Shown here piece by piece: positions 45,592 through 45,966 of a stretch of 64,000 nt of DNA. How positions within the stretch are numbered: position 1 is the stretch's first letter; each line of letters begins with the position of its first letter. The notes under the pieces are model-generated. The model saw only the letters and a program-made list of their open reading frames with translations. It made no database searches and had not been told where the DNA came from. Source of the DNA: Escherichia coli 042 (lineage in GTDB: Bacteria; Pseudomonadota; Gammaproteobacteria; Enterobacterales; Enterobacteriaceae); assembly GCF_000027125.1 (NCBI RefSeq), contig NC_017626.1. One strand, given 5' to 3'. The translations under genes and the position numbers were made by a program.

Positions 45592-45595
45592 TTCA

Positions 45596-45911
45596 ATGAC
45601 TCAAAACTATGAACTGATTGTGAAAGGGATCCGCAATTTTGAGAATAAAGTTACGGTAACTTTAGCGTTACGGGACAAAAAAACGCTTTGACGGTGAAAT
45701 TTTTGACCTGGACATCTCGCTGGACCGTGTTGAAGGTGCCGCGCTGGAGTTTTATGAGGCAGCAGCCAGAAGGAGCATCAGACAGGTCTTCCTGGATGTT
45801 GCTGCCGGGTTATGTGAAGGGGACGAGCTGTTGCCAGAAACGCGCCCCTGTTCAGAGGCGCGGTATACCATAAAAATTAACAGTTCTGATAACTCGATTA
45901 CGGGTTGTTAG
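45596..45911 (+). pseudogene. ORF split by a frameshift at an A7 tract (31-aa N-terminal ORF 45596..45691; protein-like frame continues 45666..45911)
   Basis: frames overlap at aaaaaaa (45677-45683); downstream frame has no start codon of its own; deleting one A gives a continuous ~105-aa ORF. Confidence 0.4.
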
Positions 45912-45966
45912 CTTTTTGCAGTTGGCTTTCCAGTATCTTTCATTGGTAGCATCCTGATAAATATCC

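What the first reader, a model, noticed from the sequence alone, without database searches (positions are those of the whole stretch)
45592..45966. Gene between holin and endolysin split by a frameshift at an A7 homopolymer
Holin and endolysin are normally adjacent, but here they are separated by about 375 bp. A 31-aa ORF (45596-45691, MTQNYELIVKGIRNFENKVTVTLALRDKKTL) ends just after an aaaaaaa tract (45677-45683), and a second frame with protein-like composition (...FDGEIFDLDISLDRVEGAALEFYEAAARRSIRQVFLDVAAGLCEGDELLPETRPCSEARYTIKINSSDNSITGC) runs from the tract to 45911 with no start codon of its own. Removing one A would fuse them into a single ~105-aa ORF. This is either a recent inactivating indel, slipped-strand phase variation, or programmed slippage at the poly-A tract.
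Basis: seen in the sequence. Interest (0 to 1): 0.45.

Follow-up and report, generated by a model that had tools for sequence, protein, structure and literature searches.

The report
Frameshifted ydfR pseudogene in prophage lysis cassette
The gap between the prophage's holin and endolysin genes holds ydfR, a small accessory gene of unknown function, broken here by one extra A in a run of six; it is an ordinary young pseudogene that public annotation already flags as frameshifted.

Summary
An A7 run lies at 45677-45683. A 31-codon ORF (45596-45691) stops just after it, and the +1 frame stays open to 45911. Deleting one A gives a 104-aa protein that matches Pfam DUF1327 (YdfR family) at E 5.7e-39 and PHROG 2735 end to end.

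The repaired gene is 315/315 nt identical to intact ydfR in three E. coli strains, so the extra A is the only lesion.

Counting exact matches to the surrounding ~90 nt in 20,395 complete E. coli records gives A5 in 2, A6 in 1378, A7 in 21 and A8 in 0. All 21 isolated-phage copies are in frame. Other alleles break the run (AAAGAA, AAAAAC), and distant homologues have no run.

RefSeq marks the gene "YdfR family protein, frameshifted" in all eight A7 records I inspected.

The A7 allele sits on at least four different mosaic backgrounds. Either the insertion recurred at a small slippage hotspot, or the conserved ydfR block spread by recombination. Nothing supports programmed frameshifting or a true contingency locus. 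The holin, endolysin and Rz/Rz1 genes are intact.

Interest is low and the feature is already known.

The parts
43372..45225 (+). NanS-p-like SASA family carbohydrate esterase, the late-operon gene upstream of the lysis cassette
   Evidence: 617-aa ORF. The homologous gene in the closely related APEC E19035 prophage (late region 99.3% identical) is annotated 'SASA family carbohydrate esterase'. phrog_143 matches full length.
45376..45591 (+). Class II holin, 71 aa, intact
   Evidence: PHROG holin families phrog_9876 and phrog_20. RefSeq WP_000284510.1 'class II holin family protein' in the 100%-identical APEC E19035 stretch.
45596..45911 (+). ydfR (DUF1327 / YdfR family) pseudogene, whole extent
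   Evidence: Same extent annotated 'YdfR family protein, frameshifted' in the identical RefSeq sequence. Pfam and PHROG matches of the repaired product.
45596..45691 (+). 5' fragment of ydfR: a 31-codon ORF ending at a premature TGA. It would encode only strands beta1-beta2 of the predicted domain.
   Evidence: AF2 model of the repaired protein has beta1 at 5-14, beta2 at 18-27, beta3 at 34-43 and a helix at 50-71.
45677..45683 (+). A7 homopolymer, the site of the +1 insertion. The common in-frame allele is A6 (GAC AAA AAA CGC, reading D-K-K-R).
   Evidence: Allele census. Alignments.
45667..45911 (+). 3' part of ydfR, open in the +1 frame with no start of its own (only a TTG at 45831)
   Evidence: Nucleotide-identical to intact alleles.
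45967..46500 (+). Endolysin (lysozyme), 177 aa, with a hydrophobic N-terminal segment; intact
   Evidence: phrog_7 endolysin at E 5.8e-63. RefSeq 'lysozyme' WP_001274711.1.
46799..47263 (+). Rz-like i-spanin, 154 aa, with the embedded Rz1-like o-spanin ORF at 47019-47201; intact
   Evidence: phrog_13 at E 1.2e-73 and phrog_3198 at E 7.5e-30.

Best explanation
The 375-bp interval holds ydfR. This small accessory gene (DUF1327 / YdfR family, function unknown) normally lies between the class II holin and the lysozyme in many E. coli lambdoid prophages and phages. In this window a single extra A has been added to an A6 run (GAC AAA AAA CGC becomes GAC AAA AAA ACG), presumably by replication slippage. 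Translation then stops after 31 codons, in the loop between predicted strands beta2 and beta3. That removes beta3 and the long helix, so the allele is almost certainly null (inferred). The lesion is young, because the rest of the gene is nucleotide-identical to intact alleles. It is a sporadic, unprogrammed pseudogenisation of a gene that lysis does not require. Lambda-type cassettes work without ydfR (established knowledge), and the holin, endolysin and Rz/Rz1 here are intact.
For: The repaired product is DUF1327 (E 5.7e-39) and matches phrog_2735 full length. Phage mEp460 carries an intact 104-aa gene in the same holin-ydfR-lysozyme order, as do thousands of E. coli genomes. The repaired gene is 315/315 nt identical to intact ydfR (WP_000193273.1) in strains STEC388, E275a and 300709. 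Census of the otherwise identical ~90-nt haplotype in 20,395 E. coli records: A6 in 1378, A7 in 21, A5 in 2, A8 in 0. All 21 matching isolated-phage records are in frame. The run is not conserved: MS6198 has AAAGAA, mEp460 has AAAAAC-C, and more distant homologues read ETGGY there. RefSeq/PGAP flags all eight inspected A7 records and the one inspected A5 record as 'frameshifted'. The same 1125-nt A7 haplotype is found at 100% identity in 8 records from about 5 unrelated strains, so it is a real inherited allele. In the related APEC E19035 prophage, ydfR is the only frameshifted gene in an otherwise complete-looking prophage.
Against: No read-level data exist for the window's own source, so a homopolymer miscall in this particular assembly is not formally excluded. 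The A7 allele occurs on at least four mosaic backgrounds, which means the site is more mutable, or more mobile by recombination, than an average site. Loss of function of the 31-aa product is inferred from the model and from the published mapping of the RNase E-binding surface to residues 1-72 (PMC13232886). It has not been measured.
Confidence: 0.9

Rival explanations
1. Slipped-strand phase variation: the A6/A7 run is a contingency switch that reversibly turns ydfR on and off, and the OFF state is selectively useful in some hosts.
For: Out-of-frame alleles of both signs exist (A7 in 21 records, A5 in 2). A7 occurs on at least four different flanking haplotypes. TUM10008 (A7) differs from WP7-S17-ESBL-04 (A6) only by the extra A over 1169 nt, which suggests an independent recent event. 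15 of the 21 A7 records and both A5 records come from poultry, pigs, calves or a farm environment.
Against: A run of 6-7 is shorter than the homopolymers of known contingency loci (established knowledge). OFF alleles make up only 23 of 1401 exact-haplotype records, and no A8 exists. The run is interrupted or absent in many functional alleles, so it is not a maintained feature. The spread across backgrounds is equally explained by recombination of the ~260-nt conserved ydfR block, whose two ends coincide with mosaic junctions. The livestock bias fits a shared prophage gene pool as well as it fits selection.
Confidence: 0.05
2. Programmed recoding: +1 ribosomal frameshifting, or transcriptional slippage that drops one A, at the A7 run yields full-length YdfR as a regulated minor product.
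For: A run of seven A allows tRNA-Lys to re-pair in the +1 frame and allows some RNA polymerase slippage (established knowledge). The downstream frame is perfectly intact.
Against: The two-frame arrangement is not conserved: about 98% of same-haplotype alleles and all 21 phage copies are single in-frame ORFs. The required shift is +1/-2. A -1 shift enters the third frame, whose product has no family resemblance (protein P0156). The 0-frame codon after the run is ACG, neither a stop nor a notably rare codon, and no prfB-like signal is evident (read from sequence). Efficient transcriptional slippage is known for runs of about 9 or more (established knowledge). The intact downstream frame is explained by the youth of the lesion.
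Confidence: 0.02
3. Sequencing or assembly artefact: the true sequence is A6 and the seventh A is a homopolymer miscall.
For: Homopolymer length errors are common in long-read assemblies (established knowledge). Singletons such as TUM10008 differ from A6 relatives only at the run.
Against: The window's exact 1125-nt haplotype with A7 recurs in 8 complete-genome records from about 5 unrelated strains and laboratories, and 21 records in all carry A7. An independent identical error in all of them is unlikely.
Confidence: 0.03

Closest known systems
YdfR of the E. coli K-12 Qin prophage (UniProt P76160; Pfam PF07041 DUF1327; NCBI 'YdfR family protein')
   Same: Same family and the same position between the prophage holin (essQ/essD type) and lysozyme (rrrQ type). 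Same predicted N-terminal beta-beta-beta-alpha domain. The K-12 protein is reported to bind the catalytic N-terminal half of RNase E through residues 1-72 and to co-purify with RNA (PMC13232886).
   Different: The window copy is frameshifted after codon 29 and cannot make the domain. Its C-terminal tail (...CEGDELLPETRPCSEARYTIKINSSDNSITGC) is one of several mosaic tail variants giving proteins of 103 to 176 aa or more. K-12 has AAAGAA-type sequence (D-K-E-R) at the site, not a pure A run.
Intact ydfR of phage mEp460 (YP_007112129.1) and of E. coli STEC388, E275a and 300709 (WP_000193273.1)
   Same: Same 104-aa short-tail variant in the same gene order. WP_000193273.1 is encoded by a sequence identical to the window gene apart from the extra A. 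mEp460 differs by one further base (AAAAAC, K to N).
   Different: These are in frame (A6 or A5C). The window has A7.
RefSeq pseudogene QQA32_RS14510 in E. coli APEC E19035 (NZ_CP126926.1), 'YdfR family protein; frameshifted'
   Same: 100% identical over window 45376-46500, including the A7 run. It is the same allele, already annotated.
   Different: Nothing at the locus. Outside 39275-48522 the two prophages are mosaic relatives (84-97% identity or unaligned), so the window comes from another strain.
Programmed +1 frameshift and transcriptional-slippage genes (prfB, dnaX, IS-element transposases, Shigella mxiE)
   Same: Two overlapping frames joined at a homopolymer or slippery run.
   Different: In those genes the slippery site and two-frame layout are conserved across homologues and come with stimulatory signals. 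Here the layout is a rare allele (21 versus 1378) and the run itself is not conserved.

Membership tests
YdfR family / DUF1327 (PF07041) | Significant full-length match to the family profile | tested here: met
   The conceptually repaired (A6) product matches PF07041 at E 5.7e-39 over model 1-90 of 93 and phrog_2735 at E 3.5e-55 over 1-105 of 105.
YdfR family / DUF1327 (PF07041) | Location between class II holin and lysozyme in a lambdoid late operon | tested here: met
   Holin at 45376-45591 and lysozyme at 45967-46500 flank it. The order is the same in mEp460 and in many E. coli prophages.
YdfR family / DUF1327 (PF07041) | Uninterrupted ORF encoding the whole domain (residues ~1-75) | tested here: not met
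   The frameshift at 45677-45683 stops translation after 31 codons. The locus is therefore a pseudogene member, as RefSeq annotates it.
Programmed frameshift / transcriptional slippage gene | Slippery site and two-frame arrangement conserved among homologues | tested here: not met
   A7 in 21 records versus A6 in 1378. None of 21 phage copies has A7. AAAGAA and AAAAAC alleles exist, and distant homologues have no run.
Programmed frameshift / transcriptional slippage gene | Stimulatory context for a +1 shift (stop or hungry codon in the A site, upstream SD-like element), or a run of about 9 or more for RNA polymerase slippage | tested here: not met
   Read directly from the sequence. The 0-frame codon after the run is ACG, the run is 7 nt, and no prfB-like arrangement is present. 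Actual slippage efficiency cannot be measured with these tools.
Phase-variable contingency locus (simple-sequence repeat switch) | Several tract lengths, with ON and OFF states both common in populations | tested here: not met
   A5 in 2, A6 in 1378, A7 in 21, A8 in 0 records with otherwise identical flanks. OFF alleles are about 1.6%.
Phase-variable contingency locus (simple-sequence repeat switch) | High-frequency reversible switching within a clonal culture | not testable with these tools
   This needs read-level or amplicon data from the strain.

The most novel reading that the evidence does not exclude
The A6 run in ydfR is a low-rate ON/OFF hotspot that has been hit independently several times. 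Loss of this putative RNase E-binding late-operon protein would then be tolerated or favoured in prophages circulating in poultry and livestock E. coli, and that would give a natural allelic series for finding out what YdfR does during lysis or lysogeny.
Probability: 0.07. Interest if true: 0.3.

Novelty: already known. Interest (0 to 1): 0.1.

Why it matters
It matters little in itself. This is a routine single-base pseudogenisation of a dispensable prophage accessory gene, and RefSeq already annotates the identical sequence as frameshifted. There are two practical points. First, the "gap" between holin and endolysin in many E. coli lambdoid prophages is a real gene of unknown function, which one recent study links to RNase E (PMC13232886). 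Second, naturally occurring null alleles (A7, A5) sit beside isogenic intact alleles, differing by one base over more than 1 kb. Those pairs could serve as ready-made controls if someone wanted to test YdfR function.

Tried and rejected
1. Programmed frameshift: rejected on lack of conservation and on sequence context.

2. Contingency locus: the tract-length census shows in-frame A6 overwhelmingly dominant.

3. Counting independent origins. I compared the holin-ydfR-lysozyme segment of 8 A7, 1 A5 and 7 in-frame alleles. A7 lies on four deeply different flanks (57-200 differences per 1.1 kb), each with in-frame relatives 1-5 differences away. The ydfR 5' block itself is nearly invariant and bounded by mosaic junctions, so recurrent mutation and recombinational spread cannot be told apart. 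Only TUM10008 has a perfect A6 twin, and as a singleton it could be an assembly error.

5. No sequence match in PDB (best E 0.42), PADLOC (none) or NCBIfam (none).

6. Two giant repeat proteins (P0149, P0159) appeared in the exhaustive search. On inspection they are highly repetitive sequences, and I regard the matches as probably spurious. I did not pursue them.

7. Whether the window is APEC E19035: it is not. The window is only 99.3% identical over 39275-48522 and mosaic elsewhere.

8. Literature: 'DUF1327' gave one incidental paper. 'ydfR' gave mostly unrelated melanoma cell-line papers, plus one relevant study.

Full report
**1. The observation**

The sequence reads GGGAC AAAAAAA CGCTTTGACGG, with the seven A at 45677-45683.

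- An ATG at 45596 lies four bases after the holin stop and is preceded by a GGAG-rich stretch. It opens a 31-codon ORF that ends at the TGA at 45689-45691.
- The +1 frame is open from 45667 to the TAG at 45909-45911. Its only start-type codon is a TTG at 45831.
- Deleting one A gives a 315-nt ORF of 104 codons plus stop.
- The holin ends at 45591 and the endolysin begins at 45967.

**2. What the gene is**

The repaired product matches Pfam DUF1327 (PF07041) at E 5.7e-39 over almost the whole model. It also matches PHROG 2735 end to end.

DNA searches show the same arrangement, class II holin then 'YdfR family protein' then lysozyme, in 4,251 of 5,426 complete E. coli genomes. It also appears in temperate phages such as mEp460, where the gene is an intact 104-codon ORF. 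The 375-bp gap is therefore the normal place of ydfR, the gene named after the K-12 Qin prophage copy.

The family is small and confined to Escherichia, Shigella and Salmonella. It has 260 clusters at 90% identity and 60 representatives at 50% identity among 1.8 billion proteins.

An AlphaFold2 model built from 28 homologues is confident for residues 1-75: three antiparallel strands (5-14, 18-27, 34-43) followed by a helix (50-71). The tail from 76 to 104 is disordered. Alignment shows the first ~75-85 residues conserved and the tail replaced by several unrelated variants.

**3. The nature of the lesion**

The repaired window gene is 315/315 nt identical to intact ydfR (WP_000193273.1) in strains STEC388, E275a and 300709. 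The extra A is therefore the only defect, and no secondary decay has accumulated.

I searched 88- to 91-nt versions of the surrounding sequence with runs of 5, 6, 7 and 8 A against 20,395 complete E. coli records. Exact matches were:

| Run length | Records |
|---|---|
| A5 | 2 |
| A6 | 1378 |
| A7 | 21 |
| A8 | 0 |

In the phage collection all 21 matching records carry 89-nt, in-frame versions.

Other functional alleles break the run. MS6198 has AAAGAA (K-E) and mEp460 has AAAAAC-C (K-N). More distant homologues read ETGGY at this loop, with no A run.

The frameshift falls in the loop between predicted strands beta2 and beta3. The 31-aa product therefore lacks beta3 and the helix. A 2026 study mapped the RNase E-binding surface of K-12 YdfR to residues 1-72 (PMC13232886). 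Loss of function is thus strongly expected, but it is an inference.

**4. It is real and already annotated**

The window's 1125-nt holin-ydfR-lysozyme segment, A7 included, recurs at 100% identity in 8 records. These come from about five unrelated strains: APEC E19035, three '729' poultry isolates, pig isolate HCP5S3_I4, human isolate CB7453 (present as two records) and GPEC505-623.

RefSeq annotates the gene as 'YdfR family protein; frameshifted' in every A7 record I inspected and in an A5 record.

In the related APEC E19035 prophage, integrated next to ompW, ydfR is the only frameshifted gene in a complete-looking lambdoid genome running from integrase to tail genes.

The window is not that strain. 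Only 39275-48522 is 99.3% identical, and the rest is mosaic.

**5. One origin or several?**

The A7 allele sits on at least four backgrounds that differ by 57-200 substitutions per 1.1 kb:

- holin type A with the short tail (the window group);
- holin A with the long tail (TUM10008);
- holin B' with the short tail (13P477T, E371);
- holin B with the long tail (AR_0089, S51, QA-1986 630, 33F4 and others).

Each background has in-frame relatives only 1-5 differences away. TUM10008 differs from the A6 strain WP7-S17-ESBL-04 only by the extra A over 1169 nt, and by three further SNPs over 4.2 kb.

This pattern fits recurrent slippage at a short homopolymer. It fits equally well recombinational spread of the nearly invariant ~260-nt ydfR 5' block, whose two ends coincide with the mosaic junctions (near 45568 and 45824). 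I could not separate these two explanations.

By the host or source given in the records, 15 of the 21 A7 records and both A5 records come from poultry, pigs, calves or a farm environment. That is consistent with a shared prophage gene pool.

**6. Mechanism and rivals**

Best explanation (confidence about 0.9): a replication-slippage insertion of one A in an A6 run created a young null allele of an accessory gene.

Lysis should be unaffected. The holin, endolysin, Rz and Rz1 are intact, and classical lambdoid cassettes work without ydfR. Q-modified late transcription is also expected to resist polarity from the premature stop. Both of those points rest on established knowledge, not on tests made here.

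- **Phase variation (about 0.05).** The short run, the 1.6% OFF frequency, the absence of A8 and the non-conservation of the run all argue against it.
- **Programmed recoding (about 0.02).** The layout is not conserved. A +1/-2 shift would be required, whereas -1 leads to an unrelated frame. The following 0-frame codon is ACG, and the run is shorter than those known to give efficient transcriptional slippage.
- **Assembly artefact (about 0.03).** The identical allele recurs in many independent assemblies, but this cannot be excluded for this window without its reads.

**7. What YdfR itself may do**

This question lies outside the finding. The only experimental lead I found is the report that K-12 YdfR binds the catalytic half of RNase E and co-purifies with RNA (PMC13232886).

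**8. Verdict**

The feature is an ordinary single-base pseudogene of a known, uncharacterised prophage gene family, and it is already annotated. Interest is about 0.1.

Noticed in passing
window 45568-45824 (and loci L003-L016): The 5' ~230 nt of ydfR plus the last ~25 nt of the holin form a nearly invariant block. It is flanked on both sides by highly divergent sequence: holin types differ by about 70 substitutions, and the ydfR tail and lysozyme are replaced by unrelated variants. All four holin/tail combinations occur, so the block looks like a recombination linker between lysis-cassette modules.
   Followed up: partly
E. coli records: By the host or source given in the records, frameshifted ydfR alleles (A7 in 21 records, A5 in 2) are mostly from poultry, pigs, calves or a farm environment (15 of 21, and 2 of 2). 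The genome collection overall appears dominated by human isolates, which I did not count. This may only reflect prophage lineages shared among farm-animal E. coli.
   Followed up: no
window 42147-42396 and 42397-43371: A tRNA cluster (ARAGORN calls Met-CAT, Arg-TCG and Arg-TCT; RefSeq calls the first one Ile in the related record) is followed by ~1 kb without a long ORF and then the NanS-p-like esterase. This is the layout of Stx-converting phages, but with no toxin genes where stxAB would sit. The close relative STEC388 carries stx2k in front of the same holin-ydfR-lysozyme module, though without the esterase gene.
   Followed up: no
window 46591-46797: A strong terminator-like hairpin (46591-46623, 13 pairs followed by a T-rich tail) lies between the endolysin and a small ORF (46624/46660-46797) with a hydrophobic C-terminal segment. 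That ORF matches phrog_6632 (unknown function) and sits just upstream of Rz.
   Followed up: no
window 45308-45336: A terminator-like hairpin with a T7 tail lies between the esterase gene and the holin start, inside the late operon. Late transcription presumably reads through it only when Q-antiterminated.
   Followed up: no
proteins P0149 (3128 aa) and P0159 (2356 aa): Two giant, highly repetitive proteins match the YdfR query in 6-8 stretches each (E 1e-9 and 1e-6). They look like repeat-amplified compositional matches, not homologues.
   Followed up: partly
window 19461-64000 versus L018 (APEC E19035): The window's prophage shares the ompW-side integration region and a 99.3%-identical late region (39275-48522) with the E19035 prophage. 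The early and replication region is only patchily alignable (84-96% identity) and the structural genes are 94% identical. This is typical lambdoid mosaicism.
   Followed up: partly
L017 (E. coli TB4019) 538-1586 and 2457-2806: In the A5 carrier TB4019 the neighbouring prophage DNA methyltransferase is also annotated as frameshifted. That prophage may be decaying more generally, or the assembly may have homopolymer errors.
   Followed up: no
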